Positions 813 through 63,884 of a stretch of DNA of 64,000 bases are shown here, piece after piece. Numbering within the stretch: the stretch's first letter is position 1; each line of letters begins with the position of its first letter. Source of the DNA: Gemmatimonadota bacterium (GTDB taxonomy: Bacteria > JAAXHH01); the NCBI GenBank assembly GCA_026705925.1, contig JAPOZT010000019.1:49878-113877 (forward strand), written 5' to 3'. Both the position numbers and the translations under genes were made by a program. The notes below the pieces were generated by a model that saw only the letters and a program-made list of their open reading frames with translations, did not search any database and was not told where the DNA came from.

Positions 813-1601
813 TCAAGCCGCGCTCCAACCGCCGTCGACCATCAACACGGAACCGGTCGTAAAGGATGCCTGGTCGGAAGCCAGATACAGGATGGCTTGT
901 GCCACTTCTTCAGGCGCACCGAAACGGTCCATGGGGTGCTTTTTCTTAAGCCGCTCGTACATGGCGGCATGGGCCTGTACCGATTCCGTCATGGGGGTAT
1001 CCACCCACCCCGGCGCTACGGCATTGACCCGTATCCCGCGATCTGCGAACTCGACGGCAAGGACACGCGTCAACTGGTCAAGTCCCGCCTTGGAGGCACC
1101 ATAAGCCGCCGACTTCTTCATTCCCGATTGCCCGAGGATCGAGCTGACGTTGACGATACTCCCGGCGCTCCTGGAAACCATCCCCGGCAGGACTGCGCGG
1201 ATGAGCCGGAACGCTCCCGACAGATTGGTCCCGATAATCTGGTCCCAGATTTCGTCTGTGGTTCTTTCGGCGTCCATCAATGGGCCAGTCCCCGCGTTGT
1301 TGACCAGTACGTCGATCTTCCCATAGGTGGCCGTCGTCTGGTCGACCATCCGCTGGCAATCTTCGGTGATGGCCACATCCCCTGAAACGGCCAAAGCTCG
1401 TCCGCCCGTAGCCTCTATGGAGGCAACGACTTCTTCCAGCGGGGCCTTCCTGCGCCCTGTAACACAGACGGCCGCGCCTTCCTCGGCAAAGAGTCTCGCC
1501 GTAGCGGCCCCGATTCCCGTTCCGCCGCCCGTGATGAGCGCGACGCGCCCTTCCAGTTTCAATGCCGGCTCTCCCGGAGAGCGATCTCGGTCAGCTGCCA
1601 T
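813..1601 (-). CDS. short-chain dehydrogenase/reductase (SDR, FabG-like)
   Basis: TGGGTGIG Rossmann motif, NNAG, YGASKAG catalytic motif. 11-nt overlap (ATGGCAGCTGA) with upstream PhyH gene. Confidence 0.8.
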   Translation of the reverse strand: MAADRDRSPGEPALKLEGRVALITGGGTGIGAATARLFAEEGAAVCVTGRRKAPLEEVVASIEATGGRALAVSGDVAITEDCQRMVDQTTATYGKIDVLVNNAGTGPLMDAERTTDEIWDQIIGTNLSGAFRLIRAVLPGMVSRSAGSIVNVSSILGQSGMKKSAAYGASKAGLDQLTRVLAVEFADRGIRVNAVAPGWVDTPMTESVQAHAAMYERLKKKHPMDRFGAPEEVAQAILYLASDQASFTTGSVLMVDGGWSAA

Positions 1602-2433
1602 TGTTCAACGTGCTCTCGGCCAGCGCGCCTTTGGTCTGCGCCCCATCGATCAGCTCGCCGCCGGTCAGCGCACCCTCTCCGAAGATGACGGGGAAGGTCT
1701 CGCCCGTATTGACCGCCCGGGTGGACGCGTCCATGTATGCGATGCTGAATGCCCTTCGCGGGTTGCAGGAGGGATTGCGGGCCGACCGGTGCAGGAGCAG
1801 GTTGTTCAGGAGAATGGCCTCGCCCGCCTCCGCCTCGAGGTAGATACAGTCTTCCTCCCGCGCGTACCGGGCCTGGTCGGCCTCCGACGGGAAGTGCATC
1901 TCGTTGATCACGCCGTGCTTGTGGCTGCCCACCACCACCTCCATGCAGCCGTTTTCGACCGTCGCCGCATCGAGGGCGGTCCAGACTGTCGTCTCCGGGT
2001 TCGCATCCAGCCCCCACCCGATGCCGACGTCCTGGTGCCAGGGGAGATGGGTGCCGTGCTCTGCAGGTTTGTTCATGAACATGGCCCGGAAGATGGAGAC
2101 GTTTGGACCGACGAGGGCCTCCGTGACCTCACGGAAGAACGGGTGCTGCATGTATCCCAGGAAAAGCGGATCCAGTTGCAGGTCGTCGATACGCCGGTAT
2201 GTGAGCGTCTCCTCGCTTTCCTCGAAGGTTCTTGTCGGCAGTTCGCCGTACTCGCCTGTATCCGTGTCGCGCTGCATGGGCATGCCCTCGTAGCGGACGT
2301 TGCCCAGCATGATGTCATCGATGCGGTCGCGCATGGCCTGCAGGTGTTCCTCGGAAGCCACCCGGCCCAGGCGCAGGTAGCCTTCCTCGGCAAACCGGGC
2401 CAGTTCGCTCATGCCGAAATTATGTATGGCCAT
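1591..2433 (-). CDS. phytanoyl-CoA dioxygenase (PhyH) family Fe(II)/2OG oxygenase, copy 1
   Basis: PhyH-family architecture (HxD...H). Start moved to ATG at 2433 (MAIHNFGMSELARF), downstream of ORF-track start. Coupled to SDR. Confidence 0.7.
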   Translation of the reverse strand: MAIHNFGMSELARFAEEGYLRLGRVASEEHLQAMRDRIDDIMLGNVRYEGMPMQRDTDTGEYGELPTRTFEESEETLTYRRIDDLQLDPLFLGYMQHPFFREVTEALVGPNVSIFRAMFMNKPAEHGTHLPWHQDVGIGWGLDANPETTVWTALDAATVENGCMEVVVGSHKHGVINEMHFPSEADQARYAREEDCIYLEAEAGEAILLNNLLLHRSARNPSCNPRRAFSIAYMDASTRAVNTGETFPVIFGEGALTGGELIDGAQTKGALAESTLNNGS

Positions 2434-2601
2434 TGTAACCTCTGTTTTTATCGATATCGAACGAGTCGGATACGCAAACCGTATCACGCACGATAACCTT
2501 ATGTCAAGCGATATTCCGAATGACCTTGACACAAGTTACTGTGCTATTACGCTTTACCCAAAATGGCGACGTTTGGCGGTGTGTAGATCACGCAGCAGAG
2601 G

Positions 2602-2997
2602 ATGGAGGAGACCATGACGGAACAGGACGTTCAGAACTGGCTCGAGGTATATGGCCGTGCCTGGGTCGGTAGCGACCCGGACCTGGCGGTCACATTGTTT
2701 GCCGAAACGGCCACTTATCGTGAAACGCCTTTTGATGAACCAATGAGAGGACGACACGAAATACGGGCGTACTGGCAGAAATACGCGGTGGAAACACACG
2801 AGGACATCGAGTTTGAATCTCAGGTCTGGGCGGTCAGGAACGATACCGCGATTGCCGGCTGGCAAGCCCGCTACACCCTGCAGGCCACCGGAGCACGGGT
2901 CAGCCTCGACGGGACGTTCAGACTCGTGTTTTCAAACGAAACGGGTGCTCTTCAGTGCACTGTCCTCGAAGAGTGGTGGCACAGAAAAGAATCTTGA
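2602..2997 (+). CDS. SnoaL-like / NTF2-fold protein
   Basis: 131-aa ORF with GGAGGAG upstream. WQARYTL...FRLVF pattern typical of SnoaL-like ketosteroid-isomerase fold. Alternative start at 2614. Confidence 0.55.
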   Translation: MEETMTEQDVQNWLEVYGRAWVGSDPDLAVTLFAETATYRETPFDEPMRGRHEIRAYWQKYAVETHEDIEFESQVWAVRNDTAIAGWQARYTLQATGARVSLDGTFRLVFSNETGALQCTVLEEWWHRKES

Positions 2998-3027
2998 GCC
3001 GGTGACTCCGGCCGCCACTGTCAGTCG

Positions 3028-4994: not shown

Positions 4995-5927
4995 ATGATC
5001 GTCATGGCAACGAACAACGGCGACGTGGGCATCCGGCAGGCGGTGGCCGCGCTCAGGGAAGGCAAGACCGCGGTGGACGCCATCGAGATCGGCATCCGGG
5101 AGGTGGAGGTGCACCGTCCCGACCGTAGCGTCGGCCTGCACGGCTATCCCAACATCCTCGGCTATCCCCAGCTGGACGCCCTCATCATGGACGGCCGCAC
5201 CCGCGACGTGGGGGCCGTGGGCGCAGTGACGGGATACGACCACCCGATCTCGATCGCCCGCTGCGTCATGGAGAAGCTGATACACGTCTTTCTCGTCGCC
5301 GACGGGGCGGAGCGGTTCGCCAGCGAAATGGGTTTCGAGAAGAGCACCTATGTGGACCCCGAAATGCCCGAGATCTACGCGAAGCACGTGGTCGAACAAC
5401 TCGGCATCGACGACCCCGAAGAACTCCAGCACACCAAAGAGCTGTGGAAGCTGAGCCACCTGGCCGTCGATCCGCAGAAGGCCGGGGGCACGACCAACTT
5501 CATCGCGCAGGACGGCAACGGCGACCTCTGCGTGGGCGTGAGCACGAGCGGTTGGGGATGGAAGTACCCGGGCCGCCTGGGTGATTCGCCGGTCATCAGC
5601 GCGGGCGGTTTCGCCGACAACCGCTACGGCGCCGCGGCGTGTACGGGCACGGGAGAGCTGGCCATCCGGACCGGCGCGGCCCGGAACGTGGTGACCTACA
5701 TGAAGATGGGCATGTCGCTCGAAGAGGCCACGGCCGAGGGGCTTCGGGACATGAACGAGCTGGATTCCCAGCGCGTGGGCGGCGTGCAGATCATCTCCCT
5801 GGATGCCAGCGGCGCCCACATGGCGGGAACCACGAGCGACCGGAAAGGCAGCCACGTCTACATGACGGCCGACATGGACGAGCCCGAGTTCGTCGAAGGC
5901 ATCTCGGTGCCGTACGAAAGTGCGTAG
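4995..5927 (+). CDS. Ntn-hydrolase asparaginase-2 family (isoaspartyl peptidase / glycosylasparaginase-like)
   Basis: GGTTNF...TSTSGWGWK...GAAACTGTGE motifs of plant-type asparaginase/glycosylasparaginase family. Confidence 0.8.
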   Translation: MIVMATNNGDVGIRQAVAALREGKTAVDAIEIGIREVEVHRPDRSVGLHGYPNILGYPQLDALIMDGRTRDVGAVGAVTGYDHPISIARCVMEKLIHVFLVADGAERFASEMGFEKSTYVDPEMPEIYAKHVVEQLGIDDPEELQHTKELWKLSHLAVDPQKAGGTTNFIAQDGNGDLCVGVSTSGWGWKYPGRLGDSPVISAGGFADNRYGAAACTGTGELAIRTGAARNVVTYMKMGMSLEEATAEGLRDMNELDSQRVGGVQIISLDASGAHMAGTTSDRKGSHVYMTADMDEPEFVEGISVPYESA

Positions 5928-6069
5928 GGGAAACCGACCAGGACGTTCGAGGCCGTTCGAGGCCGTTCGGGGCATTGCGAAGGTATCGCGGGCGACCGAG
6001 CGGAGCACCGCGAGGGAATTGCACGCGGCCGCTCGCGGCATCGCGGATGGACCCGGAGGAGCATCCCGG

Positions 6070-6804
6070 ATGAAGCTGGAGAACGCCAAGGCCCATCTCG
6101 ACGAACACGGTTACGTCGTGCTCAAGGATGCGTTGACCCCGGAGCAGGCCGGTGCCCTGCGAGATCGCTCGGCCGAGTTGGCCGCGCACGAAAAAGCCGG
6201 AAGCGGAGAACACGTATACTTCGACGGGCAGGCGCAACGGGTGTGGAACCTGGTCAACAAGGGCCGCATCTACGAGGAGATGATCCAACTGCCGCAAGTG
6301 CTCGCGCTCCACGAACACCTGCTGGGCGACGACTGTATCTTAAGCAGCTTTACCGTGAATCTCATCGGCCCCGGCGCGCCGGCTGGCGGTCTGCATGTCG
6401 ACTTTCCGCTGGGTCGTTTCCCGCAGCCGCCTCCACCCTTCGCCTTCTGCGCCAACACGATCTTCGTACTCGACGACTTCTCGCCCGAAAACGGGGCCAC
6501 GCGGATCGTGCCGGGCAGTTACAAACGCGGATACGCCCCCGATCCGGAAAAGGAATACGACGACGTCATCCAGCTGGACGCCCGCAAGGGTGATATCGTC
6601 ATTATCCACGGCGCGACCTGGCACAGCAGCGGCGCCAATCGAACCCGGGAGGACCGGATGATCCTGCTGGGGTTCTTCTGCCGCTCGTTCATGAAGCCGC
6701 AGCAGGACCAGTTCAGGCTGGCCAGCCCCGAGGTCGTCGAGCGGGCGACGCCGACCCTGAAGCGCCTGCTGGGATTCGAGTCGCAGTCGGGCATGCGGAC
6801 TTAA
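6070..6804 (+). CDS. phytanoyl-CoA dioxygenase family, copy 2
   Basis: PhyH-family pattern (HVDFP...ATWHSSGAN). Start moved to ATG 6070 (MKLENAKAHLDEHGYVVLKD); the 50-codon upstream extension in the ORF track looks non-coding. Confidence 0.7.
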   Translation: MKLENAKAHLDEHGYVVLKDALTPEQAGALRDRSAELAAHEKAGSGEHVYFDGQAQRVWNLVNKGRIYEEMIQLPQVLALHEHLLGDDCILSSFTVNLIGPGAPAGGLHVDFPLGRFPQPPPPFAFCANTIFVLDDFSPENGATRIVPGSYKRGYAPDPEKEYDDVIQLDARKGDIVIIHGATWHSSGANRTREDRMILLGFFCRSFMKPQQDQFRLASPEVVERATPTLKRLLGFESQSGMRT

Positions 6805-6944
6805 ATCACGGTTCCGGGCCGGCTGTTTGTCCGCTGGACTGAGCCACGTACCCGGACCGACGGCCCAGGTCCACCTGTCCGCGTTTCCCCCGTCGTCCAA
6901 TTCGCAATTCAATCGTCACATTTATCCTAAGAGAAAGAACCATC

Positions 6945-7703
6945 ATGTCCGATGCTACATCGCCGAATATCGTCCCCAAGACCTACACCTGCTACCGTGC
7001 CTGCGGCTCGATCGCGATCGACGGAAAGCTGAGCGATCCGTCCTGGATCCGGGCGCCCCGCACCGACCTCTTCGTCGACATCGAGGGCGACCTCAAGCCC
7101 ATCCCGCGCTTTGGCACGCGCGCCATGATGCTGTGGGACGACGAGTACTTCTACGTCGCCGCGGACATGGAGGAACCGGACGTCTGGGGCACACTGACCA
7201 AGCGGGATTCCGTCATCTGTCTCGACAACGACTTTGAGGTGTTTATCGATCCCGACGGGGACACCAATCACTACATGGAGTTCGAGATCAACCCCTTGAA
7301 CACCGCCTGGGACCTGTACCTGCCCAAGCCCTACAGCAAGGGCGGGAAAGCCGATCACGACTGGGACTTCGAGGGCGTGCGGCACGCCGTCCATATCGAC
7401 GGAACGGTCAACTGCTCCCACGACGTGGACCGCGGCTGGTCCACCGAAATAGCCTTTCCCTGGACCAGCATGGCCGAATACGCCGGCGTCGACTGTCCTC
7501 CCAGGGCCGGAGATTCCTGGCGGGTCAACTTCTCACGGGTCGAGTGGGAATTCGAGCGTTACAAGGACGGCTATCTGAAGAAAGAGGGGGTTCCCTGCGA
7601 CAACTGGGTCTGGTCGCCGCAGGGAGAGATCAACATGCATATCCCCGAGATGTGGGGACACGTCGTGTTTTCGGATACCATCGTAGGAACGGCGGCGATG
7701 TGA
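6945..7703 (+). CDS. carbohydrate-binding family 9-like (CBM9/DOMON-like) protein
   Basis: IDGKLSDPSW...FEVFIDPDGD...WSTEIAFPW pattern typical of CBM9-like domains. Confidence 0.55.
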   Translation: MSDATSPNIVPKTYTCYRACGSIAIDGKLSDPSWIRAPRTDLFVDIEGDLKPIPRFGTRAMMLWDDEYFYVAADMEEPDVWGTLTKRDSVICLDNDFEVFIDPDGDTNHYMEFEINPLNTAWDLYLPKPYSKGGKADHDWDFEGVRHAVHIDGTVNCSHDVDRGWSTEIAFPWTSMAEYAGVDCPPRAGDSWRVNFSRVEWEFERYKDGYLKKEGVPCDNWVWSPQGEINMHIPEMWGHVVFSDTIVGTAAM

Positions 7704-16403: not shown

Positions 16404-16649
16404 CGGCGCGCATCAGAATCCGGGGGAATAAAGCAATCGCTGCATTGAACTTATACGTTTCCGGGGCGGATTACAATACATTTGTACCGGTGTCATGCGG
16501 TAAGGGTTGCCCGCGGGTTCGTTCACGTGCATAATGGACGAGGTTGTGCGTGGCGTTTCCGCCGCGTGACCCGGGAACCGGTCAAACCGGCCAGAAACCG
16601 GCCGAGATTGCTGGCCGATGTCCAAAAGATCACAAGGAGCCTCAGATCC

Positions 16650-19697: not shown

Positions 19698-19735
19698 CGG
19701 GCGGACCACGTCCACAAACCTGCAAGGGAGGATCC

Positions 19736-41835: not shown

Positions 41836-41838
41836 CGA

Positions 41839-46221: not shown

Positions 46222-46403
46222 GTCTTCTCACAGCTCGATCTGATTGTTTCCCTTCTATCGCTTTCTCATTGGAACCTGTACACCATACCCGGCGGGCATA
46301 TCGAACTCGGTGAGACGACGGAAGAAGCGCTGACACTTCCTGTCGACCGGTACACGGCCCGCGCCGTCGAAGCCCTGCTCGCAAGGCGGAGATCCAACAA
46401 GTA

Positions 46404-47102: not shown

Positions 47103-47173
47103 TGGAGTACGCTACGTTGAAACAGACCCCGACGGAGGAAACCGAGACGGAGGAAACCGCGACGGAGCACACC

Positions 47174-48040: not shown

Positions 48041-48100
48041 CGTGCGACCAGATTCCTCCTCGCAGACGAATCCTGATTTGTGATCCCCGGTTGGACCTTG

Positions 48101-48787: not shown

Positions 48788-48858
48788 CTCCCTGTGCCGA
48801 ATCGTAATAACCTCCTGCAGCCTCCTGCATCGATTGCCTGCAGTTTTAAGAGAAAACC

Positions 48859-49671: not shown

Positions 49672-49707
49672 GAAATTGGCACGCACACGACACCACGACG
49701 GGAGACG

Positions 49708-50532
49708 ATGTACGTGAATATACCCCACGCCCAGGTCGAAGCCCTTCTTCGCGAAGCCACCGAGCAAATCGTCATGCCGTTCTGGAGGAATCTGGGTCGA
49801 GACGACATCACCGAGAAGAGTGCGGGCGATGTGACCACGTCGGCCGATACCCGGTGCGAGGCTTTCCTGACATCTCAACTACCCGGTTTAATCGAAGACT
49901 CGCTGGTCCTGGGCGAGGAGAGCGTCCATGACGATCCCGGTCTGTTGGCCGCGCTCCAGACGGATGCGCCTGTCTGGGTAATCGATCCCCTGGATGGCAC
50001 AAAGTACTTCGCGGCAGGCCAACCGGAGTTTGCTATCATGGTTTGCCTCATTCAGTCGGGCTTGACGATAGGAGCGTGGATACTCAACCCGATAGACGGC
50101 CAGTTGACGAGTGCGGAACGGGGGTGCGGGGCCTTCCAGGGAGACAGGCCCCTGACCGTTGACCCATCCTCCGTTCCCCTGGATCGTATGCGCGGCGTGG
50201 TGGCGACATGGTACCTGCCTGATTCCTTGCGACCCACCGCCGAAGCGGTACTGGGTTCCTTCCTGTACATCGAACGTACCCGGTGCGCCGGCTATAACTA
50301 TCCTTCCTTCGCAAAGAACGAACTGCACTTCCTGTTCTTCTATCGCACCCTGGTCTGGGATCACGCGCCGGGCGCGTTGATCGCGCAAGAGGCCGGCGGT
50401 TTCGTGCGCAGACTGGATGGGAGGGAGTATTCGCCGGTGGATGACCGCAAGGGGCTGCTGTGTGCCAACAACCCGGAAACGTGGAAATCGGTACAGCGGA
50501 CGCTGGTGCCGTCAGTATCGGTAGTCGGTTAG
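49708..50532 (+). CDS. inositol monophosphatase family protein
   Basis: WVIDPLDGT metal-binding motif, LGEES upstream motif. Confidence 0.75.
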   Translation: MYVNIPHAQVEALLREATEQIVMPFWRNLGRDDITEKSAGDVTTSADTRCEAFLTSQLPGLIEDSLVLGEESVHDDPGLLAALQTDAPVWVIDPLDGTKYFAAGQPEFAIMVCLIQSGLTIGAWILNPIDGQLTSAERGCGAFQGDRPLTVDPSSVPLDRMRGVVATWYLPDSLRPTAEAVLGSFLYIERTRCAGYNYPSFAKNELHFLFFYRTLVWDHAPGALIAQEAGGFVRRLDGREYSPVDDRKGLLCANNPETWKSVQRTLVPSVSVVG

Positions 50533-54257: not shown

Positions 54258-55337
54258 TTGCACCAGATCGCCGTGCTGCCCGGAGACGGGATCGGACCTG
54301 AAATAACCCGCGAGGCCGTTAAGGTTCTGAAGGCTGTAGGGGAGCGACACCAACTGGATCTCGATTTCTCCCACCACCTGGTCGGGGGAGCGCTGCTCGA
54401 TGCGCAGGGCGTCGCCTTGTCCGATGAACTCGTGGAGGCTTGCAGGCGCAGCGACGCGGTACTCTTCGGCGCGGTGGGCGGGCCAAAATGGGACCACCTG
54501 GACATGCAGGACCGGGCGGACCATGCCCTGATTCGACTACGGCAGGAACTAAACGTCTACGCGAATCTACGGCAGTTCCGATTGTACGCGGGGCTGGAAG
54601 ACGCGTCCGCAGTCAAAGCCGATCTCATAAGCGGGGGTGTTGATTTCATCATACTGCGCGAGCTTTCCAGCGGCGCCTACTACGGACGGCCCAAGTTCAG
54701 CGAAGTCACCTCCAGCGGCCGGCGGGCCGTCGATACCATCGAGTACTACGATTTCCAGGTCGAACGACTGGCCCGCTACGGATACGAACTGGCGCGGCAG
54801 AGGCGTGGGAGGCTGACCTCGATGTCGAAGTGGAATGCCCTGGAATCCTCCAGGCTCTGGCGCGATGTCGTCGATGAAGTGGCCCCGGTATATCCCGATG
54901 TCGATACACGGCATGAAATCGTCGACGCAGGCGCCATGAACCTGATCCAGCGGCCCGCCGAGTACGACGTGATCGTCATGCCCAACATGTTCGGTGATAT
55001 ACTGGGCGACGAGGCGGCCGTTCTTGCCGGGTCTATCGGAATGGTCCCGTCCGCGGAGATCTCGCTGGACGGCACCTCGCTGTATGAGCCGATACACGGG
55101 AGTGCGAATGACATCGAAGGCAAGAACATCGCGAATCCCATCGGAACGATCCTGAGCGGCGCCCTGATGTTCCGGTACAGCCTGGACTGTCCCGACGGCG
55201 CCGACGAGATCGAACGCGCGGTCGGCAGGGTGATCGAAGAAGGATACAGGACCGCGGACATCCTGAGGTCGCCCGGTCAACAGAGGGTATCCACGTTGGA
55301 AATGGGCGATCTGGTGGTTGAAATGTTAAGGGAGTGA
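54258..55337 (+). CDS. isopropylmalate/isocitrate/tartrate dehydrogenase family (IPMDH-like)
   Basis: TTG start with AGGAGG-N7. IAVLPGDGIGPEI, NLFGDILSD-like (NMFGDILGDEAA) motifs. Confidence 0.75.
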   Translation: MHQIAVLPGDGIGPEITREAVKVLKAVGERHQLDLDFSHHLVGGALLDAQGVALSDELVEACRRSDAVLFGAVGGPKWDHLDMQDRADHALIRLRQELNVYANLRQFRLYAGLEDASAVKADLISGGVDFIILRELSSGAYYGRPKFSEVTSSGRRAVDTIEYYDFQVERLARYGYELARQRRGRLTSMSKWNALESSRLWRDVVDEVAPVYPDVDTRHEIVDAGAMNLIQRPAEYDVIVMPNMFGDILGDEAAVLAGSIGMVPSAEISLDGTSLYEPIHGSANDIEGKNIANPIGTILSGALMFRYSLDCPDGADEIERAVGRVIEEGYRTADILRSPGQQRVSTLEMGDLVVEMLRE

Positions 55338-55339
55338 TC

Positions 55340-56470
55340 ATGTCTTACTCACCTGGACTCAAGGACGTCGTAGCGGCGGAAACCCGCCTGAGTCATGTCG
55401 ATGGCGAAGCCGGCATACTGGTCATCGGGGGATATCCACTCGAGGAGATTGCCGAAAGGGCGACTTACGAGGAGATGGTATACCTCCTTTGGCACGGGAG
55501 GCTGCCCACCGAGGCTGCCCTCGAGGGATTCGCTGGCGAACTGGCTGCGAGCCGCCCGCTGCCCGGTGTCACCCACGATCTGTTGCGCGGCGCGGCGAAG
55601 GAACGCCGACCTGTCATCGACGTGGTTCGCATGGCCGCGGCCTCCCTTCCTTCCATCGACGACACAGCCGACGCCCGGTCCCTGGTGGCCGGCCTGCCGA
55701 CCATCGTGGCGGCCTACTGGCGCCTTCTTCACGGCAAAGAACCGGTAGCACCCGACGCCAGTCTCGGCCACGCGGCCAATCTGCTGTACATGCTGGACGG
55801 CGAAAACCCCGGCGGTGATCGCGTACGGGCACTGACGACCTATCTCAACACGGTGATCGACCACGGCATGAACGCTTCCACCTTCACGGCGCGGGTTATC
55901 GTTTCCACGCGTTCGGACTTCGTTTCTGCCGTTTCAGGTGCGATCAGCGCGCTCAAAGGACCCCTCCACGGCGGCGCACCCGGCCCCGTCATTTCCATGC
56001 TCGAAGCGATCGGCGACGCCGATAACGCCGAATCCTACCTTCGCGAACGGCTTGAGTCCGGTGAACGGCTCATGGGTTTCGGTCACGCGGTATACCGGGT
56101 TCGCGACCCGCGGGCCGACGTCCTTTCGCGCGCCGCGCGCGCCTTCTTCGACCATGAAGACGACGACCGTGAAGACGACCTGTACGACCTGTACGACCTG
56201 GCCGTGCACGTCGAGAAAACCGCCCTCGAACTCCTCGAAGAATACAAACCCGGCCGGCGCCTGCAGACCAACGTCGAGTTCTACACCGCTCTTCTCCTCA
56301 AGGGGCTGGGGCTCCACCCGGACCTCTTCACCCCCATGTTCGCCGTGGGACGCGTCGCCGGCTGGACCGCACACTGCATCGAGCAGCGGGCCGTCGATCG
56401 TATCTTTCGTCCGGAATCTCTTTACTCGGGCGAGATGGCCAGACAGTGGACGCCCCGTGATGAGCGGTAG
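55340..56470 (+). CDS. citrate synthase (short about 375-aa type; could be 2-methylcitrate synthase)
   Basis: GPLHGGA, GFGHAVYRVRDPRA, GRVAGWTAHCIEQ. Acidic insertion with 9-nt tandem repeat. Overlaps upstream gene stop. Confidence 0.8.
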   Translation: MSYSPGLKDVVAAETRLSHVDGEAGILVIGGYPLEEIAERATYEEMVYLLWHGRLPTEAALEGFAGELAASRPLPGVTHDLLRGAAKERRPVIDVVRMAAASLPSIDDTADARSLVAGLPTIVAAYWRLLHGKEPVAPDASLGHAANLLYMLDGENPGGDRVRALTTYLNTVIDHGMNASTFTARVIVSTRSDFVSAVSGAISALKGPLHGGAPGPVISMLEAIGDADNAESYLRERLESGERLMGFGHAVYRVRDPRADVLSRAARAFFDHEDDDREDDLYDLYDLAVHVEKTALELLEEYKPGRRLQTNVEFYTALLLKGLGLHPDLFTPMFAVGRVAGWTAHCIEQRAVDRIFRPESLYSGEMARQWTPRDER

Positions 56471-56609
56471 CTTATTGCCACGGGTACTCATCTACTTAAC
56501 GCTGGCATAACGTGTCCGAATCTCGCATAATACCATCTTGAGACATCTATACGGTTGAGGACATGACTTCAGGTTGATCTTGCGGGCAATACCGGGAGAG
56601 GAACAGGCT

Positions 56610-57500
56610 ATGGCGATGGTCGACATGAAGCAGATCCACGCGCTGGAAGATGCGACGGACCTGCTGAGACGCCCCGACGAACTGCGGCAACGCGCCGCGG
56701 AGCACGGCTGCCTGTTCTTTCGGCGACTGCTCGATCCGGCGCGCGTGATGGAGGTCCGGCGCCAGGTGCTCGGTGTGTGCCGGGAACACGGGTGGCTTGC
56801 CCCCGGTTCGGATCTCATGGACGGCATCGCGAATCCCGAAATCAGCGTGTTCGAAGGCGACGACCCGCGCTGGACTGCTTTCTACGACGATGTCCAGCGG
56901 ATCCGCGACTTCCACGCACTGGCCCTCGACCCCGCAATCATCCACATGCTCGAAGTGCTGTTCGGAGAACCCGTGCTTGCCCACAGCCGGAACATCTGCC
57001 GGCTCGTATTCCCGGACACGAACACCCACTCGACCCCGCCGCACCAGGACAACTATTTCATCGGCGGTTCGGACGAGACGTGGACGGGCTGGATTCCGCT
57101 GGGAGACTGTCCGGAGGAACTCGGCGGACTCGCCGTCAACCGGAGATCCCACCGTAGCGGCATGCTGGAAACGACCGAGGGCGTGGGGCCGGGCGGGCGG
57201 CAGGTTCCCGTAGAGGACGATTCCGCCTGGGTCGGCGGCGACTACGCCTGCGGCGACGTGATTATCCTGCACAGCCTGACGATTCACCAGGGCCGGGACA
57301 ACATGACCACGGATCGTCTCCGGCTGTCCTCCGACTATCGGTACCAGCCGAGAAGCCACCCCGTCCGGGAGGATTCTCTCCAGCCCCACATGAACTGGTT
57401 GACATGGGACCAAGTTTACGAAAACTGGGAGGAGGACGATCCGGTGAGGTACTATTGGCGGGATTGGCCCCTGGACGTGGTCAAGCGGGAGCCGCAGTAG
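56610..57500 (+). CDS. phytanoyl-CoA dioxygenase family, copy 5
   Basis: HTPPHQD...H pattern. Confidence 0.6.
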   Translation: MAMVDMKQIHALEDATDLLRRPDELRQRAAEHGCLFFRRLLDPARVMEVRRQVLGVCREHGWLAPGSDLMDGIANPEISVFEGDDPRWTAFYDDVQRIRDFHALALDPAIIHMLEVLFGEPVLAHSRNICRLVFPDTNTHSTPPHQDNYFIGGSDETWTGWIPLGDCPEELGGLAVNRRSHRSGMLETTEGVGPGGRQVPVEDDSAWVGGDYACGDVIILHSLTIHQGRDNMTTDRLRLSSDYRYQPRSHPVREDSLQPHMNWLTWDQVYENWEEDDPVRYYWRDWPLDVVKREPQ

Positions 57501-57617
57501 GCGGCCCGCGCCTGGACTTGCCCGCGCCTGGACAGGCCCTTGGACACGGTCCGCCTACGGCCACGCCGGCGCCTGGGCCTGTATCTGGACACTGCCCGCA
57601 CCAGGACACCCCCGGAT

Positions 57618-58733
57618 ATGCCCAATCCAGTTATCAAAACCGCCCAGCACCTGGTGCGCATGTTCCTCCCCAAACCGATGGCAGCGCTGGTCGATATGTC
57701 GGGGCGCTACGTGATCGTGACCGGGGCGTCACCCGGTTCGCTCGGGTACGAAACCGCGCGGGTCCTCGCGGGCTGGGGGGCCAAGGTCGTGGCGACCCGG
57801 GTCCGGCACGTAGCCCTGATGGAAGCGGCGCTGAAAGACGACCTTCGCAGGCGCGGCGACGACGCGGACAACCTCACGGCACACGCACTGGACCTCTCCG
57901 ATGCGCACAGCGTCAACGCCTTCGCCGCCTGGTACCGCGACCGACACCAGGGCAAGCTCCATGTGCTGATCAACAACGCGGGCATCCACAGGAAGACTTT
58001 GGCCCCGCGCAGCGAAGTGCCTTTGACCGAAGATGGCTTCGAAGTGCACTGGCGGACCAACTATCTCGGCGTCTTTCACCTGACCCGGGTGCTGCTGCCC
58101 CTCCTTCAACAATCCGGTATCGAAAGCGGCGACGCACGGGTCGTCAACGTGTCCTCCGGCCTGCACGACAGGGTAGGGAACGCGGACCTGTTCGACGAGG
58201 GGCCGAACCCCGACGGGTCGGGCCGCCACCAGCCGAACCGCTACCGGCCGCGCGGCGATTCAACACGCCGTAACTTGCCGAACGGCAACTTGCCGAACGG
58301 CAACTTGCCGCAACGTGATTTGTCACCCCGCGATAGGCCGCGCTACCACTCCTGGGACGCCTATGGGAAGTCGAAACTGGCGATGAATCACCTGGCCTTT
58401 GAAATCGAAAGGCGATTCGCCGAATCCCACAACCTGCACGGGATGGCCGTACACCCGGGCGTCGTCATGACCAACCTGACCCTGCCGCAAGCGTTTGAAG
58501 GCTGGATTGGTAAGGCACTCCATCGTATCAGTTCCGCGCTGGCCTCGCTGGTCCTGCTGTCCCCGAATGCCGGGGCGCAGACCATCGTGATGTGCGCGAG
58601 CCAGCGTCCCCTGCAAGGGGGAAGATACTATGAGCGCTGCGACATCGCCGAACCGAGCACGGACAGCCTCGACACCGACGCCTCGAAACGCCTGTGGGAA
58701 CAGTCGGAACAGTGGGTCGGGACGCTTGTGTAA
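57618..58733 (+). CDS. SDR family oxidoreductase (retinol-dehydrogenase-like) with low-complexity NLPNGNLPNGNLP insertion
   Basis: VTGASPGSLG, NNAG, YGKSK. 15-nt tandem repeat x2.6 at 58271-58313 encodes the insertion. Confidence 0.7.
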   Translation: MPNPVIKTAQHLVRMFLPKPMAALVDMSGRYVIVTGASPGSLGYETARVLAGWGAKVVATRVRHVALMEAALKDDLRRRGDDADNLTAHALDLSDAHSVNAFAAWYRDRHQGKLHVLINNAGIHRKTLAPRSEVPLTEDGFEVHWRTNYLGVFHLTRVLLPLLQQSGIESGDARVVNVSSGLHDRVGNADLFDEGPNPDGSGRHQPNRYRPRGDSTRRNLPNGNLPNGNLPQRDLSPRDRPRYHSWDAYGKSKLAMNHLAFEIERRFAESHNLHGMAVHPGVVMTNLTLPQAFEGWIGKALHRISSALASLVLLSPNAGAQTIVMCASQRPLQGGRYYERCDIAEPSTDSLDTDASKRLWEQSEQWVGTLV

Positions 58734-58855
58734 GGACGTGGTGCTCGCGCGGCCAACCATGCGGCACACAACGCAAACCGCGCTGAACATGTAGACAATT
58801 CGTAATCAACCCGGGTGAATCAACCCACGGGAATCAAGCTACAGGACAGCCCACT

Positions 58856-59626
58856 TTGGACAACGAACTATTAAAACGGGGGTTCTCACCCCGGCCGCTG
58901 ACGTCCGCGCAACGCAAGGCGCTGGACACCGATGGCTTCATCGTACTGGAGGAGATCATCTCGCCGGACTGGCTCGTCGGGCTGCGCCAGGCTTTCGATG
59001 AGATTCATGACCGCGAAGGCGAAAAGGCCGGAGAGGAGGTCGCCCAGATGGAAGGGGTACGCCGGCTTGCCGATCTGATTAACAAGGGATCGGTTTTCGA
59101 CGCGGTCTACCTGCAGCCCGAGCTCTTGACGGCGGTCTTCCATGTCCTGCAGCGGCCGTTCAAGCTGCACTCGCTCAACGGGCACGACCCGCTGCCGGGA
59201 AGCGGGCTGCAGATCCTGCACGCCGATTGGGGACAACCGACCGCACCCGGCGGACCCTACCACGTCGTCAACTCCATGTGGATGCTCGACGATTTCACCC
59301 GGGTCAACGGTGCGACGCGCTGCGTACCCGGCAGCCACCGAATATCCGGAAGGATTACCGACCATGTAGCTGATCGCCTGGCGGACCACCCCGGACAGGT
59401 CTACCTGACGGGCCGCGCCGGTTCGGTGGCCGTATTCAACGGCAGTCTCTGGCACAGTTCTTACATCAACCGCAGCGACGCCCCCCGGCGAGCCCTGCAC
59501 TGCGCCTTCATCGCCCGTGAACACCCCCAGCAGACGAATCAGCGCGAGTACCTCCGGCCCGAGACGGCTCTACGCCTGTCCCCGCTGGCGCGCTACATCC
59601 TGGACGTCGAGGACGACCCGCGGTAA
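58856..59626 (+). CDS. phytanoyl-CoA dioxygenase family, copy 6
   Basis: LHADW...PGSH...WHSS pattern. Confidence 0.6.
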   Translation: MDNELLKRGFSPRPLTSAQRKALDTDGFIVLEEIISPDWLVGLRQAFDEIHDREGEKAGEEVAQMEGVRRLADLINKGSVFDAVYLQPELLTAVFHVLQRPFKLHSLNGHDPLPGSGLQILHADWGQPTAPGGPYHVVNSMWMLDDFTRVNGATRCVPGSHRISGRITDHVADRLADHPGQVYLTGRAGSVAVFNGSLWHSSYINRSDAPRRALHCAFIAREHPQQTNQREYLRPETALRLSPLARYILDVEDDPR

Positions 59627-62341: not shown

Positions 62342-62398
62342 GGGAGGGTCGAAGCATTTGTATTCCAGGCACTTCTCGTTCCGACAGCCATCAAGGAG

Positions 62399-63115
62399 AT
62401 GCCGCCAATGGCCTCCAGCAGCACACAGGAATTTCTGAGGTTACTGCACTCCGTGAAGGACAAATACAATGGTCCTGAAGAACTTGATATTCGAAAAGGT
62501 GAGCTGAAAAACGGTATCCGGGAGGCGGAACAGGCGTTCGTGGGAAAGTTCCCGAAAAACAGTCGCCTTCTGGACATTGGTTGCGCGTCGGGACGATTGT
62601 GCTTCGCACTTGCGCGGCAGGGATACGACGTCACCGGTATCGATGTCGCCGAAAATCAGATTGAACAGGCAAGACGTACCGCGGAAGCGGAAGGCGTCGA
62701 CGTGACGTTCCTACAGTACGAGATGCCGAATCTGCCTTTTCCCGACGCCTCATTTGCCGCTGCATTTATGGGAAACGTTTACTGCTATGTCCCGTACCGC
62801 GCGTCACGTATCGCTTTTCTGGAAGAGATCGCGCGGGTGCTATATCCGAATGGCGAGGTGTTTCTTTCGCAGACTGTCCTGGATTCCGTACTGGAGAGTT
62901 ACGATGACCTCTGCGATGACAACCATCGTAAGTTCGCTCCCGATTACGAGACCCTGGAGGAGGGAGACGGATTCGTGCTGGGAGCGCCCCAGTTTCTGCA
63001 CTTCTTCTTCGCCGATGATCTCATGGCAGAACTGGAAACATCTTCATTTCATGTGGCGAGTCCAGAATTGAAGAAGTCAGATTTCAAGTGTGTTTTACGT
63101 AAGCGCAATATATGA
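62399..63115 (+). CDS. class I SAM-dependent methyltransferase
   Basis: LLDIGCASGR motif I, GYDVTGIDV motif II. Lower GC than flanks. Confidence 0.7.
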   Translation: MPPMASSSTQEFLRLLHSVKDKYNGPEELDIRKGELKNGIREAEQAFVGKFPKNSRLLDIGCASGRLCFALARQGYDVTGIDVAENQIEQARRTAEAEGVDVTFLQYEMPNLPFPDASFAAAFMGNVYCYVPYRASRIAFLEEIARVLYPNGEVFLSQTVLDSVLESYDDLCDDNHRKFAPDYETLEEGDGFVLGAPQFLHFFFADDLMAELETSSFHVASPELKKSDFKCVLRKRNI

Positions 63116-63146
63116 GCCGTGCGGTTACATTGTTTCAATGTGCTTT

Positions 63147-63884
63147 TCACACCTTCCTCGCCACGTGTCGATCTTCGTATATCCCTTTAAGGAACTTCTC
63201 CGGATTGAGTTCTTCAGGCATATAATGCCAGGCCGTGCTGTAACGGGTGCGGGTGCTGTGGTTGTCGTAGGCGCCGTGCAGGAGATTGGCGGAAAACAGC
63301 ACGACCGTGCCCGCGGGTATAACCAGGTCCACGGCCTGCGCTTCATCGACCTTTGTCCAGCTGCCATGCCTGCTTAGCTCACTGCGGTGCTCGACGATCT
63401 CACCGATCCGGTGGCTACCTGGCACCACCCGCAGGCAACCGTTCTCCACGTCCGCATCTTCCAGGTAGATCCCGCAACTGACGATGCGATCCGTATCGGT
63501 CCCGAAATAGAAATTGTCCTGGTGCCAGCCCGTCGACGTGCCTCCATCGGGCAATTTCGGAAAGAACTTGGTGCCGAACACGTCGAGATTCTCGCCGATC
63601 AACTCAGCCACGCGGTCTACAATCGCCGGTTCCCGCGCCAGTTCCAGCACGCGGTCGTCGACCACGCATACGCCCTGGACTTTGTGCAGCAGACCCGCCC
63701 TGGGTTCGCCGCCTTCGTCCAGCTCGAGTGACCAGTGCGGGGTCTGCTCATTCAACCGGCTGCCCTGTGTGACAAGTTCATCGAATACCTGCTTGTACCA
63801 GGCCAGTCGCTCGCTCTGTATCAAGGATTCAAAAACGAGAAACCCGTCTTCCCGGTACTGTATTACTTGTTCGTCGGTTAACAT
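63147..63884 (-). CDS. phytanoyl-CoA dioxygenase family, copy 7
   Basis: WHQDNFYF...PGSH...LLHGAYDN pattern. Confidence 0.65.
   Translation of the reverse strand: MLTDEQVIQYREDGFLVFESLIQSERLAWYKQVFDELVTQGSRLNEQTPHWSLELDEGGEPRAGLLHKVQGVCVVDDRVLELAREPAIVDRVAELIGENLDVFGTKFFPKLPDGGTSTGWHQDNFYFGTDTDRIVSCGIYLEDADVENGCLRVVPGSHRIGEIVEHRSELSRHGSWTKVDEAQAVDLVIPAGTVVLFSANLLHGAYDNHSTRTRYSTAWHYMPEELNPEKFLKGIYEDRHVARKV

What the first reader, a model, noticed from the sequence alone, without database searches (positions are those of the whole stretch)
1591..63884. Seven PhyH-family Fe(II)/2OG oxygenase paralogs in 64 kb, with repeated partner families
PhyH-family genes at 1591, 6070, 20845, 47174, 56610, 58856 and 63147 are interleaved with four HAD phosphatases, two SnoaL-like, two SDRs, two GNATs, two APH-type kinases, sulfatase, S9 peptidase, MBL-fold, DCC oxidoreductase and an ADC/racemase-family operon. 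This density is far above typical bacterial genomes. It suggests a hydroxylation/dealkylation-centred catabolic toolkit for branched or recalcitrant lipid- or terpenoid-like substrates. This kind of paralog expansion has been reported for some dark-ocean and oligotroph lineages. That attribution is inference only.
Basis: partly seen in the sequence, partly recalled or inferred. Interest (0 to 1): 0.55.

Follow-up and report, generated by a model that had tools for sequence, protein, structure and literature searches.

The report
Seven divergent PhyH oxygenases, sponge symbiont
This 64-kb stretch of chromosome from a sponge-associated Latescibacterota bacterium carries seven very different, apparently functional iron/2-oxoglutarate oxygenase genes of the PhyH family, a richness reported before only for another sponge-symbiont phylum (Poribacteria), and what these enzymes act on is still unknown.

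Summary
Seven ORFs at the stated positions score above Pfam's PhyH threshold, and a six-frame search finds no eighth. They are only 17-29% identical to each other, so they are not assembly duplicates. All seven keep the His-x-Asp...His iron site and the aligned Arg.

The contig belongs to a sponge-associated Latescibacterota lineage (97% LeuB-like identity to an Ircinia ramosa MAG), not a dark-ocean oligotroph. The closest precedent is the PhyH richness of Poribacteria (Kamke 2014). The window contains no acyl-CoA, beta-oxidation or hydroxyacyl-CoA lyase gene that would point to phytanoyl- or terpenoid-type catabolism. No copy reaches the cut-off for EctD, PhnY*, PtlH or the halogenases.

The genes sit in six separate gene strings between ordinary chromosomal genes. 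They are not one cluster. Four copies have same-position orthologs at 82-98% identity in up to ten related species. Four copies have cross-phylum relatives at 42-68% identity, including Poribacteria. The set is therefore an old, retained collection of distinct subfamilies rather than a recent duplication burst.

The genome-wide PhyH count could not be obtained. I rate this a new member of a known kind, of moderate interest.

The parts
1591..2532 (-). PhyH copy 1 (longest ORF; probable start at ATG 2412). PHYH/PHYHD1/EvdO2-like subgroup. Overlaps the downstream SDR gene by 11 nt.
   Evidence: Pfam 97.5 bits. Triad H166/D168/H248 and R259. Nearest solved structure is human PHYH 2a1x, E 1.3e-14. 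Relatives at 42-68% identity in metagenomes.
6070..6804 (+). PhyH copy 2 (244 aa; the ORF is open from 5920). SptF/AsqJ/FtmOx1/DhiD-like subgroup. Lies between an Asparaginase_2 gene and a CBM9-like gene.
   Evidence: Pfam 100.7 bits. PDB best hit SptF, E 4e-16. The start at 6070 fits 244-aa homologs with 100% coverage; Poribacteria homologs are 54-61% identical. Absent from the same position in the GC-52% relatives L060 and L062.
20845..21699 (+). PhyH copy 3. EvdO2/EctD/PHYH-like subgroup. Fourth gene of a same-strand string: MBL, DUF2961, DUF2961, PhyH, DCC1, esterase, SnoaL.
   Evidence: Pfam 120.8 bits. PDB best hit EvdO2, E 1e-20. More than 7,700 homologs; 63-67% full-length identity in proteins named Poribacteria, Caldilineaceae and Planctomycetota.
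47102..48040 (+). PhyH copy 4, the most divergent (probable start 47174). Embedded in the string sulfatase, S9 peptidase, HAD, PhyH, HAD, APH, IMPase.
   Evidence: Pfam 40.6 bits. AlphaFold2 model pLDDT 91.8. Foldseek top hits are PhyH-type Fe/2OG dioxygenases (SptF, PrhA, FtmOx1), E about 1e-14. H138/D140/H242/R251 invariant in 40 homologs. Orthologs at 86-98% in 11 relatives.
56574..57500 (+). PhyH copy 5 (called start 56610). PtlH-like subgroup. Downstream of the IsoDH-citrate synthase pair and followed by an SDR.
   Evidence: Pfam 50.0 bits. NCBIfam PtlH 67.6 bits against a 550-bit cut-off. PDB 2rdn, E 9e-15. Same-position orthologs at 82-96%.
58856..59626 (+). PhyH copy 6. PrhA/AndA/SptF-like subgroup. 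Its closest in-window paralog is copy 2 (29%).
   Evidence: Pfam 90.9 bits. PDB best hit PrhA, E 3.9e-8. Same-position orthologs at 84-93%.
63147..63890 (-). PhyH copy 7 (database gene call 63147-63884, 245 aa). PHYHD1/PHYH/6zyk-like subgroup. Sits 24 nt downstream of a DUF4377 gene that lies just outside the window.
   Evidence: Pfam 121 bits. PDB 6zyk, E 1e-14, and PHYHD1, E 7.5e-12. Exact 245-aa product found on 6 public contigs. Orthologs at 83-97%.
3..1601 (-). Partners of copy 1: SDR (813-1601) and an HpaB_N-family flavoenzyme (3-668, cut by the window start).
   Evidence: Pfam. The PhyH1, SDR, HpaB-like trio is kept in relatives down to 65% PhyH identity (L059-L062).
4995..7703 (+). Same-strand string around copy 2: Asparaginase_2 (4995-5927), PhyH copy 2, CBM9-like protein (6945-7703).
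   Evidence: Pfam. Same gene order in L057 and L058.
16482..23669 (+). Seven-gene same-strand string around copy 3, with gaps of 105 nt or less: double MBL-fold protein (16482-18509), DUF2961/GH172-like x2 (18615-19697, 19736-20815), PhyH copy 3, DCC1 (21740-22228), BD-FAE/alpha-beta hydrolase (22315-23196), SnoaL_2 (23253-23669).
   Evidence: Pfam. Coordinates. The DUF2961 pair is 85% identical.
42937..50532 (+). Seven-gene same-strand string around copy 4: sulfatase (42937-44508), S9 peptidase (44521-46221), HAD (46404-47102), PhyH copy 4, HAD (48080-48787), APH kinase (48859-49671), inositol-monophosphatase family (49708-50532).
   Evidence: Pfam. Order largely kept in 11 relatives.
54258..59626 (+). 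Same-strand string holding copies 5 and 6: Iso_dh (LeuB-like, 54258-55337), citrate synthase (55334-56470), PhyH copy 5, SDR (57540-58733), PhyH copy 6.
   Evidence: Pfam. Order kept in 8 relatives.
24056..42705 (.). Mixed with hisC/hisG, two MacB/FtsX permeases and an ECF sigma factor.
   Evidence: Pfam.

Best explanation
**What it is.** The window is an ordinary chromosomal segment of a sponge-associated Latescibacterota bacterium. NCBI record titles label some of these MAGs 'Gemmatimonadetes bacterium'. Relatives have closed chromosomes of 3.8-4.0 Mb.

The segment carries seven anciently diverged members of the PhyH family of Fe(II)/2-oxoglutarate oxygenases. All seven keep the iron and 2-oxoglutarate ligands. 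They sit in six separate gene strings.

**How it most likely works (inferred).**
- Each enzyme binds Fe(II) through His-x-Asp...His and binds 2-oxoglutarate through the conserved Arg.
- Each uses O2 to hydroxylate an unactivated C-H of its own small-molecule substrate, releasing succinate and CO2.
- The hydroxylated product then goes to the neighbouring enzymes: an SDR that would oxidise the new alcohol, phosphatases, kinases, a sulfatase, an esterase, GH172-like hydrolases.
- Together they would form several independent front-end oxidation modules for scavenging chemically modified organic compounds available inside the sponge.

**Origin of the set.** It is a retained collection of distinct subfamilies, at least two shared with Poribacteria, rather than a recent burst of duplication.

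**Shown:** family membership, intact catalytic residues, divergence between copies, lineage, conserved position and sequence in relatives, cross-phylum relatives.

**Inferred:** catalytic activity, catabolic role, coupling to neighbours, and any substrate.
For: **Family and catalytic residues.** Pfam scores. Invariant H/D/H/R in all seven. The copy 4 model has the PhyH-type dioxygenase fold.

**Divergence.** 17-29% identity between copies. The PDB neighbours fall into three sequence groups plus one orphan.

**Lineage.** The LeuB-like protein is 97% identical to VXTP01000044 (SB0665_bin_8) and 79-93% identical to twelve 'Latescibacterota', 'Gemmatimonad' or unnamed MAGs, several with closed 3.8-4.0 Mb chromosomes. 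SB0665_bin_8 is listed as p__Latescibacterota from the sponge Ircinia ramosa. APA_bin_41 is listed as Latescibacterota from Aplysina aerophoba.

**Retention.** Copies 4-7 have same-position orthologs at 82-98% identity. That is as conserved as, or more conserved than, neighbouring HAD, APH, SDR and citrate-synthase genes.

**Ancient subfamilies.**

| Copy | Identity of relatives outside the lineage |
|---|---|
| 4 | 44-67% (Verrucomicrobia, Bacteriovoracaceae) |
| 3 | 63-67% (Poribacteria, Caldilineaceae, Planctomycetota) |
| 2 | 54-61% (Poribacteria) |
| 1 | 42-68% (environmental metagenomes) |

**Operon-like coupling.** Copy 1 overlaps the SDR gene by 11 nt, and the trio with the HpaB-like gene is kept in 65%-identity relatives. 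Gaps of 24-142 nt separate the other copies from same-strand neighbours.

**Precedent.** PhyH is the most abundant Pfam family in the poribacterial single-cell genomes analysed, with 305 genes in 193 clusters at 60% identity, mostly of unknown function (PMC3909097). PhyH genes are transcribed in Poribacteria (PMC5087111).
Against: - No substrate is known for any copy, and no expression data exist for this lineage.
- The neighbourhoods of copy 3 and copy 4 relatives in other phyla are completely different. Their in-window neighbours may therefore not be functional partners.
- The nearest solved structures for copies 2, 4, 5 and 6 are natural-product tailoring enzymes, so a biosynthetic role cannot be excluded from sequence alone.
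- The genome-wide PhyH count is unknown. I cannot say whether this window is a local hot spot or typical of the genome. The only outside figure is 5 genes assigned K00477 in the related MAG APA_bin_41. The next 10 kb has none.
Confidence: 0.6

Rival explanations
1. The seven enzymes and their partners form a catabolic toolkit for branched or recalcitrant lipid- or terpenoid-like substrates (phytanoyl-CoA-type alpha-oxidation or dealkylation), as in dark-ocean oligotrophs.
For: - Copy 1's best solved-structure match is human phytanoyl-CoA hydroxylase (E 1.3e-14).
- Copy 5 is distantly PtlH-like, and PtlH is a sesquiterpenoid hydroxylase.
- An ERG4/ERG24-family membrane reductase lies nearby.
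- SAR202 genomes were reported to carry PhyH together with a 2-hydroxyphytanoyl-CoA lyase.
- More distant relatives of copy 1 occur in environmental metagenomes.
Against: - No Pfam-scanned ORF in the window matched a TPP-dependent lyase, an acyl-CoA ligase, an acyl-CoA dehydrogenase, an enoyl-CoA hydratase or a thiolase.
- All matches to characterised enzymes are remote: E no better than 1e-20, and NCBIfam scores 58 to 68 bits at best against cut-offs of 226-550.
- The lineage is sponge-associated.
- The neighbours are phosphatases, kinases, a sulfatase, glycoside-hydrolase-like proteins and peptidases, which fit polar substrates better than lipids.
Confidence: 0.1
2. The PhyH enzymes are tailoring oxygenases in the biosynthesis of secondary metabolites by the symbiont.
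For: - The closest solved structures for copies 2, 4, 5 and 6 are tailoring enzymes: SptF, AsqJ, FtmOx1, PrhA, AndA, PtlH.
- Copy 3's best hit is EvdO2, from everninomicin biosynthesis.
- Poribacterial PhyH transcripts were annotated as mitomycin- or fumonisin-like.
- SnoaL-like, methyltransferase and GNAT genes are nearby.
Against: - The window contains no PKS, NRPS, terpene synthase or other core biosynthetic gene.
- The PDB is heavily biased towards natural-product enzymes, so the nearest structure says little about role.
- Identities are only 12-20% in the structural alignments.
- The genes are scattered among ordinary chromosomal genes.
Confidence: 0.12
3. The region is a single co-regulated catabolic island. 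The seven oxygenases and the repeated HAD, APH, SDR and SnoaL partners act in one multi-step pathway.
For: - The local density is far above any known genome-wide frequency (P = 1.9e-4 even at 1.9%).
- The flanking 10 kb has none.
- Long same-strand strings exist at 16482-23669, 42937-50532 and 54258-59626.
Against: - Genes on both strands and of unrelated function separate the strings: hisC/hisG, a topoisomerase subunit, exonuclease III, two MacB permeases, an ECF sigma factor.
- Some relatives keep the copy 4 string but lack the copy 5-7 string next to it (L013, L017, L035).
- Copy 2 is absent from otherwise syntenic relatives.
- The repeated partner families are 30% identical or less, or unrelated by BLAST.
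Confidence: 0.1
4. Artefact or chance: assembly duplicates, mis-binned mixed sequence, or an over-permissive family assignment.
For: The sequence comes from metagenome assemblies.
Against: - The copies are 17-29% identical.
- Independent assemblies from several samples carry the same products: 5 contigs for the LeuB-like protein and 6 for copy 7. Where the contigs are long enough they also show the same gene order. The arrangement also occurs in closed chromosomes of related species.
- All copies score above Pfam's curated cut-off with intact active sites.
- GC content is uniform at 0.55-0.63.
Confidence: 0.01

Closest known systems
PhyH-family richness of Candidatus Poribacteria, sponge symbionts (Kamke et al. 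2014, PMC3909097; Jahn et al. 2016, PMC5087111)
   Same: - A symbiont of marine sponges with many PF05721 genes that are highly diverse (305 genes in 193 clusters at 60% identity) and mostly of unknown function.
- Copies 2 and 3 have relatives at 54-64% identity in proteins named Poribacteria.
   Different: - A different phylum (Latescibacterota).
- The genome-wide frequency here is not known, whereas Poribacteria exceed 1.9% of genes.
- No PhnY/PhnZ-type phosphonate module is present here.
- None of the papers returned by my searches that I checked reports this for Latescibacterota.
Human phytanoyl-CoA 2-hydroxylase PHYH (2a1x) and PHYHD1 (2opw), with the bacterial 2'-O-methyl-nucleoside demethylases of the same family (PMC12709175)
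   Same: Same Pfam family. Copies 1, 3 and 7 are nearest to this subgroup (E 1e-10 to 1e-14). Same iron and 2OG ligands.
   Different: - Copies 1, 3 and 7 align full-length to the tested demethylases, including a poribacterial one, at 21-27% identity. The highest local value is 32% over 151 residues for copy 1.
- No alpha-oxidation partner genes are present.
- No evidence of orthology.
Natural-product PhyH-type oxygenases: SptF, AsqJ, FtmOx1, PrhA/AusE, AndA, DhiD, PtlH, EvdO2
   Same: - They are the nearest solved structures for copies 2, 4, 5 and 6, and EvdO2 for copy 3.
- The copy 4 model superposes on them with TM 0.55-0.61.
   Different: - Remote similarity (12-20% identity in the structural alignments).
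- No biosynthetic cluster surrounds the genes here.
- Most of these enzymes are fungal or actinomycete.
Ectoine hydroxylase EctD, methylphosphonate hydroxylase PhnY*, SyrB2/CytC3-type halogenases
   Same: Same Pfam family. Weak NCBIfam hits.
   Different: - Scores of 17-63 bits against cut-offs of 226-500.
- All seven keep Asp in His-x-Asp, where halogenases carry Ala or Gly (established knowledge of that family).
- No ect genes and no HD-phosphohydrolase gene nearby.
Paralog expansions of catabolic enzymes in SAR202 dark-ocean Chloroflexota (Landry 2017, PMC5395668; Saw 2020, PMC6946804)
   Same: The general idea that many divergent paralogs of an oxidative enzyme family broaden the range of usable organic compounds.
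   Different: - The SAR202 paper mentions PhyH only once, as present, and does not describe it as expanded.
- Different phylum and habitat.

Membership tests
Pfam PF05721 PhyH (Fe(II)/2-oxoglutarate oxygenase, PhyH type) | Whole-protein score at or above the curated gathering threshold (22 bits) | tested here: met
   40.6-121 bits for all seven.
Pfam PF05721 PhyH (Fe(II)/2-oxoglutarate oxygenase, PhyH type) | His-x-Asp...His iron-binding triad and a basic residue (Arg) for the 2-oxoglutarate C5 carboxylate | tested here: met
   The H, D, H and R columns are invariant in the seven-way alignment. For copy 4 they are also invariant across 40 homologs. Assigning the Arg to 2OG binding rests on family knowledge; it was not tested.
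Pfam PF05721 PhyH (Fe(II)/2-oxoglutarate oxygenase, PhyH type) | The fold of solved PhyH-type dioxygenases (double-stranded beta-helix) | tested here: met
   Tested for copy 4 only, the weakest Pfam scorer. AF2 model pLDDT 91.8. Top 50 Foldseek PDB hits are all Fe/2OG dioxygenases. The other six were not modelled.
Phytanoyl-CoA 2-hydroxylase proper (EC 1.14.11.18, alpha-oxidation) | Orthology to PHYH, together with a 2-hydroxyacyl-CoA lyase (TPP enzyme) and acyl-CoA activation genes | tested here: not met
   The best match to 2a1x is remote (E 1.3e-14, copy 1). No Pfam-scanned ORF in the window matched TPP_enzyme, AMP-binding or beta-oxidation families. The rest of the genome was not examined.
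Ectoine hydroxylase EctD (TIGR02408) | Score at or above the equivalog cut-off of 336.5 bits | tested here: not met
   Best score 58 bits, copy 3.
Methylphosphonate hydroxylase PhnY* (NF052437); also considered: the PhnY/PhnZ 2-aminoethylphosphonate pathway | Score at or above 500 bits for NF052437. For PhnY/PhnZ, an adjacent HD-phosphohydrolase gene (PhnZ). | tested here: not met
   Best score 40 bits. No gene next to any of the seven copies matched an HD-phosphohydrolase family.
Non-heme iron halogenases (TIGR01762, SyrB2/CytC3 type) | Score at or above 226.3 bits, and Ala or Gly in place of the Asp iron ligand | tested here: not met
   Best score 63 bits. Asp is present in all seven.
1-deoxypentalenic acid 11-beta-hydroxylase PtlH (NF045813) | Score at or above 550 bits | tested here: not met
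   Copy 5 scores 67.6 bits. PDB 2rdn, E 9e-15.
2'-O-methyl-nucleoside demethylases (FJS/PHYHD1 type, PMC12709175) | Close sequence relationship to the experimentally active enzymes. No formal threshold exists. | tested here: inconclusive
   Copies 1, 3 and 7 give E 1e-8 to 1e-18 at 21-32% identity to the Poribacteria, Acidisoma, Sphingomonas and Fadolivirus enzymes. The paper reports this activity as widespread in PF05721, so it cannot be excluded.
Sponge-symbiont PhyH richness as described for Poribacteria | The lineage is associated with marine sponges | tested here: met
   The nearest genome (97% LeuB-like identity) is MAG SB0665_bin_8, listed from Ircinia ramosa. The relative APA_bin_41 is listed from Aplysina aerophoba. 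Both are listed as Latescibacterota.
Sponge-symbiont PhyH richness as described for Poribacteria | PF05721 genes exceed about 1.9% of all genes genome-wide | not testable with these tools
   Only the window (7 of about 63 genes), 10 kb beyond it (0 of 11) and syntenic loci could be read. K00477 = 5 in APA_bin_41 is a partial count by a narrower definition.
Sponge-symbiont PhyH richness as described for Poribacteria | High sequence diversity among the copies (most below 60% identity) | tested here: met
   All pairs are 17-29% identical over alignments longer than 200 residues.

The most novel reading that the evidence does not exclude
Two unrelated sponge-symbiont phyla, Poribacteria and a sponge-associated Latescibacterota clade, have assembled overlapping repertoires of the same PhyH subfamilies, by exchange or by parallel retention. 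These enzymes would be a shared, habitat-specific toolkit for host-derived modified metabolites.

On this reading the window is a real hot spot of the repertoire. Copy 2 would be a gain specific to the sponge clade. The conserved neighbour sets would each mark a different substrate class:
- PhyH, SDR, HpaB-like
- GH172-like x2, PhyH, esterase
- sulfatase, HAD, PhyH, HAD, kinase, IMPase

This reading would make the question of what the sponge-symbiont PhyH genes do, open since 2014, experimentally approachable.
Probability: 0.3. Interest if true: 0.55.

Novelty: new member of a known kind. Interest (0 to 1): 0.36.

Why it matters
In 2014 PhyH-family oxygenases were found to be the most abundant protein family in Poribacteria, a dominant sponge symbiont. 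Their functions are still almost entirely unknown.

A second, unrelated sponge-symbiont lineage with a dense, conserved set of PhyH genes, some from the same subfamilies, suggests the trait is tied to life in the sponge and not to one phylum.

The window also gives concrete handles for experiments. It offers seven intact enzymes with defined orthologs in closed genomes, several with conserved neighbours. One copy is present in the sponge clade but absent from the same position in lower-GC relatives. These are good starting points for substrate screening.

The find is not a new kind of system, and no new chemistry is shown.

Tried and rejected
**Extra or degraded copies.** A six-frame HMM search found no eighth copy and no fragment.

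**Non-coding features.** The window has no tRNA and no Rfam family. The ORF-poor stretch 10800-12160 has no tandem repeat and no credible Rfam match.

**Specific functional assignment.**
- NCBIfam equivalogs were all far below their cut-offs.
- The 2'-O-methyl-nucleoside demethylase sequences, taken from a paper supplement, are only remotely related.

**Function from conserved neighbourhood outside the lineage.** The contexts of copy 3 and copy 4 relatives in other phyla share nothing with the window. The GH172-PhyH and HAD-PhyH-HAD links could not be generalised.

**Genome-wide count and upstream extension.**
- Five exact-protein look-ups for genes at or near the two window ends found nothing. 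The cause is probably SNPs or different start calls.
- The Pfam count table in the Robbins et al. supplement is cut before PF05721. Only K00477 could be read.

**Literature.**
- Of the papers returned by my searches, the ones I checked do not report PhyH richness in Latescibacterota.
- Sample and chromosome accession numbers appear in no held paper.
- The Entotheonella vesicle paper mentions a PhyH protein but gives no functional lead.

**MAG statistics.** I did not use the GC or gene-number columns of the MAG table. The value that appears to be GC does not fit the 60% GC of locus L005, so the columns may be misaligned in the stored text.

Full report
**1. Gene map**

The window has about 59% G+C, with no tRNA and no Rfam family. 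I called about 63 genes from stop-to-stop ORFs with a strong third-position GC bias. I annotated most of them with Pfam.

**2. The observation**

Seven ORFs match PF05721 (PhyH) above the 22-bit gathering score, with scores of 40.6-121 bits.
- 6070 for copy 2 is supported by 244-aa homologs at 100% coverage.
- 56610 for copy 5 and 63884 for copy 7 agree with public gene calls.
- 47174 for copy 4 fits homologs of about 284-288 aa.

A profile built from the seven finds no further copy or fragment in any frame.

The seven proteins are 17-29% identical over alignments longer than 200 residues. The closest pairs are copies 2 and 6, and copies 3 and 7. They are therefore not assembly duplicates. The alignment has invariant His-x-Asp, a distal His and an Arg, which are the family's iron and 2-oxoglutarate ligands. 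Asp is kept in every copy, which argues against halogenases.

Copy 4 has the weakest Pfam match, so I modelled it from 40 homologs. The model has pLDDT 91.8. Its best PDB matches are all Fe/2OG dioxygenases of the PhyH type, such as SptF, PrhA, FtmOx1, AsqJ and DhiD.

**3. Is the density more than chance?**

- Seven of about 63 genes is 11%.
- As an empirical control, 437 kb of neighbourhoods around the same housekeeping-type gene in 28 unrelated bacteria and archaea contain no PhyH.
- Kamke et al. reported more than 1.9% of genes in Poribacteria and less than 0.049% in every other genome available in 2013.
- Even at 1.9%, seven or more in 63 genes has P = 1.9e-4.
- The repeated HAD, SDR, GNAT and APH partners are among the commonest bacterial families (general knowledge). 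Their in-window pairs are at most 30% identical or not detectable by BLAST. I do not count their repetition as a signal.
- The only recent duplication in the window is the tandem DUF2961 pair, at 85% identity.

**4. Whose genome is it?**

The LeuB-like protein (54258-55337) occurs with identical sequence on five public metagenome contigs, one of 271 kb and one over 1 Mb. It is 97% identical to a contig of MAG SB0665_bin_8. It is 79-93% identical to twelve further MAGs titled 'Candidatus Latescibacterota', 'Gemmatimonadetes' or simply 'bacterium', several with closed chromosomes of 3.8-4.0 Mb.

The supplementary table of Robbins et al. 2021 lists SB0665_bin_8 (VXTP00000000) as p__Latescibacterota from the sponge Ircinia ramosa. 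It lists APA_bin_41 as Latescibacterota from Aplysina aerophoba. The organism is therefore a sponge-associated Latescibacterota, not a dark-ocean oligotroph.

**5. Age and origin of the copies**

Copies 4-7 have orthologs in the same positions at 82-98% identity in up to ten related species. They are at least as conserved as the neighbouring HAD, APH, SDR and citrate-synthase genes. This points to purifying selection and vertical inheritance.

Database searches show that four copies belong to subfamilies found well outside this lineage:

| Copy | Identity outside the lineage | Where |
|---|---|---|
| 4 | 44-67% | proteins named Verrucomicrobia, Opitutaceae, Bacteriovoracaceae |
| 3 | 63-67%, full length | a family of more than 7,700 members, including Poribacteria, Caldilineaceae, Planctomycetota |
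| 2 | 54-61% | Poribacteria |
| 1 | 42-68% | environmental metagenomes |

These values are far above the 29% or less between the in-window copies. The set is an accumulation of old, distinct subfamilies, not a recent within-genome burst.

One gain-or-loss event is visible. More distant relatives with about 52-54% GC (L060, L062) keep the Asparaginase_2 and CBM9-like genes side by side, without copy 2 between them. The sponge-clade contigs L057 and L058 have copy 2 there.

**6. Organisation**

The seven genes lie in six separate strings:
- (a) PhyH1 overlaps an SDR gene by 11 nt, and an HpaB-family flavoenzyme gene follows. This trio is kept in relatives down to 65% identity.
- (b) Asparaginase_2, PhyH2, CBM9-like.
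- (c) MBL, DUF2961, DUF2961, PhyH3, DCC1, esterase, SnoaL, with gaps of 105 nt or less.
- (d) Sulfatase, S9 peptidase, HAD, PhyH4, HAD, APH, IMPase.
- (e) IsoDH, citrate synthase, PhyH5, SDR, PhyH6.
- (f) DUF4377, PhyH7.

Between them are hisC/hisG, a topoisomerase IV/gyrase A-type gene, exonuclease III, two MacB-type permeases, an ECF sigma factor and others. Some relatives keep string (d) but not (e) and (f) next to it. This is not one gene cluster.

Outside the lineage, the neighbours of copy 3 and copy 4 relatives are entirely different. Apart from string (a), the neighbour links are conserved only within the clade, or untested for strings (b) and (c).

**7. Function**

No copy reaches any NCBIfam equivalog cut-off. 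The best scores are EctD 58 of 336.5, PhnY* 40 of 500, halogenase 63 of 226, and PtlH 67.6 of 550.

The solved-structure neighbours split the seven into groups:
- Copies 1, 3 and 7 are nearest to PHYH, PHYHD1, EvdO2 and EctD.
- Copies 2 and 6 are nearest to SptF, AsqJ, FtmOx1, PrhA and AndA.
- Copy 5 is nearest to PtlH.
- Copy 4 has almost no sequence match.

Experimentally tested 2'-O-methyl-nucleoside demethylases of this family, one from Poribacteria, are 21-32% identical.

The window holds no acyl-CoA ligase, beta-oxidation gene or TPP-dependent lyase among the scanned ORFs. The name-giving phytanoyl-CoA pathway is therefore not supported.

My best reading is inference, not demonstration. 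Each enzyme hydroxylates its own small, probably polar substrate. The product is then passed to dehydrogenases, phosphatases, kinases, a sulfatase, an esterase or glycoside-hydrolase-like neighbours. Together these form several independent front-end oxidation modules for scavenging modified organic compounds in the sponge.

A biosynthetic tailoring role is the main alternative. It is weakened by the absence of any core biosynthetic gene.

**8. Comparison with what is known, and novelty**

The closest known case is the PhyH richness of Poribacteria (PMC3909097). It shares the same habitat, the same family, the same high diversity and the same unknown function. Two subfamilies are also shared (copies 2 and 3).

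Among the papers returned by my searches, the ones I checked report nothing comparable for Latescibacterota.

I therefore class this as a new member of a known kind.

**9. What remains open**

I could not obtain the genome-wide PF05721 count. The available partial figures are:
- no PhyH among the next 11 genes beyond the window
- five K00477 assignments in the related MAG APA_bin_41

These hint that the window may be a local hot spot, but they do not settle it.

Noticed in passing
window 18615-19697 and 19736-20815 (+): Tandem pair of DUF2961 (GH172-like) genes, 85% identical. This is the only recent duplication in the window, and it lies directly upstream of PhyH copy 3 with a 29-nt gap.
   Followed up: partly
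window 7724-8050 and 8087-8509 (-); also 4107-4424 and 4597-4884 (-): Tandem small proteins with a coiled-coil region and a C-terminal hydrophobic segment, 54% identical. The second carries repeated 8-residue units (ATRDDLKAF-like). Two more small ORFs of similar build lie 3 kb away. The only Pfam signal is a sub-threshold DUF2730 match.
   Followed up: no
window 10800-12160: About 1.37 kb without a credible ORF in a gene-dense region. It has no tRNA, no Rfam match at gathering level, no tandem repeat, and GC 0.52.
   Followed up: partly
window 13338-13973 (-): The DUF6338 gene has GC 0.41 against 0.59 for the window, with no third-position GC bias. It looks like a foreign insertion between the exonuclease III gene and the topoisomerase gene.
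   Followed up: no
window 52835-54058 (-) with 54258-56470 (+): A citrate-synthase-like protein fused to an N-terminal MerR-type HTH. It is transcribed divergently from an IsoDH (LeuB-like) and citrate-synthase pair whose genes overlap by 4 nt. The fusion gene is detected in 13 of the 14 related loci. The arrangement could be a regulator derived from an enzyme.
   Followed up: partly
window 61202-62341 (+) and 62399-63115 (+): A bacterial ERG4/ERG24 (sterol-reductase family) membrane protein (135.9 bits) is followed by a SAM-dependent methyltransferase. The first is conserved in five related loci and the second in four. The methyltransferase matches only general methyltransferase families.
   Followed up: partly
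window 27370-29772 (+) and 31712-34114 (-): Two 800-aa MacB_PCD/FtsX permeases, 37% identical. No ABC ATPase gene lies beside either.
   Followed up: no
window 57540-58733 (+): The SDR between PhyH copies 5 and 6 carries a low-complexity insertion (NLPNGNLPNGNLPQRDLSPRDRPRY) in the middle of the Rossmann domain. The Pfam match covers only the N-terminal part. It is the least conserved gene of its string (68-89% in relatives).
   Followed up: no
L060 (about 1100-2200) and L062, compared with L057 and L058: Lower-GC relatives (about 52-54% GC, 65-68% PhyH1 identity; one on a 748-kb JGI contig, Ga0315338_1000037) share the PhyH1 neighbourhood. They lack PhyH copy 2 between the asparaginase and CBM9-like genes. 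L059, from that 748-kb contig, shows the asparaginase gene and no copy 2 ortholog, but the CBM9-like gene was not detected in it.
   Followed up: partly
L051 7148-10111 and L054 1954-8855: Unrelated large-genome bacteria (contigs of 4.9 and 8.1 Mb) that carry a copy 4 relative also have a second PhyH gene within 6 kb. In L051 the two are in tandem and are followed by an enolase-superfamily gene. Across the 53 metagenome loci fetched with copy 1, 17 additional PhyH genes were found in 506 kb.
   Followed up: partly
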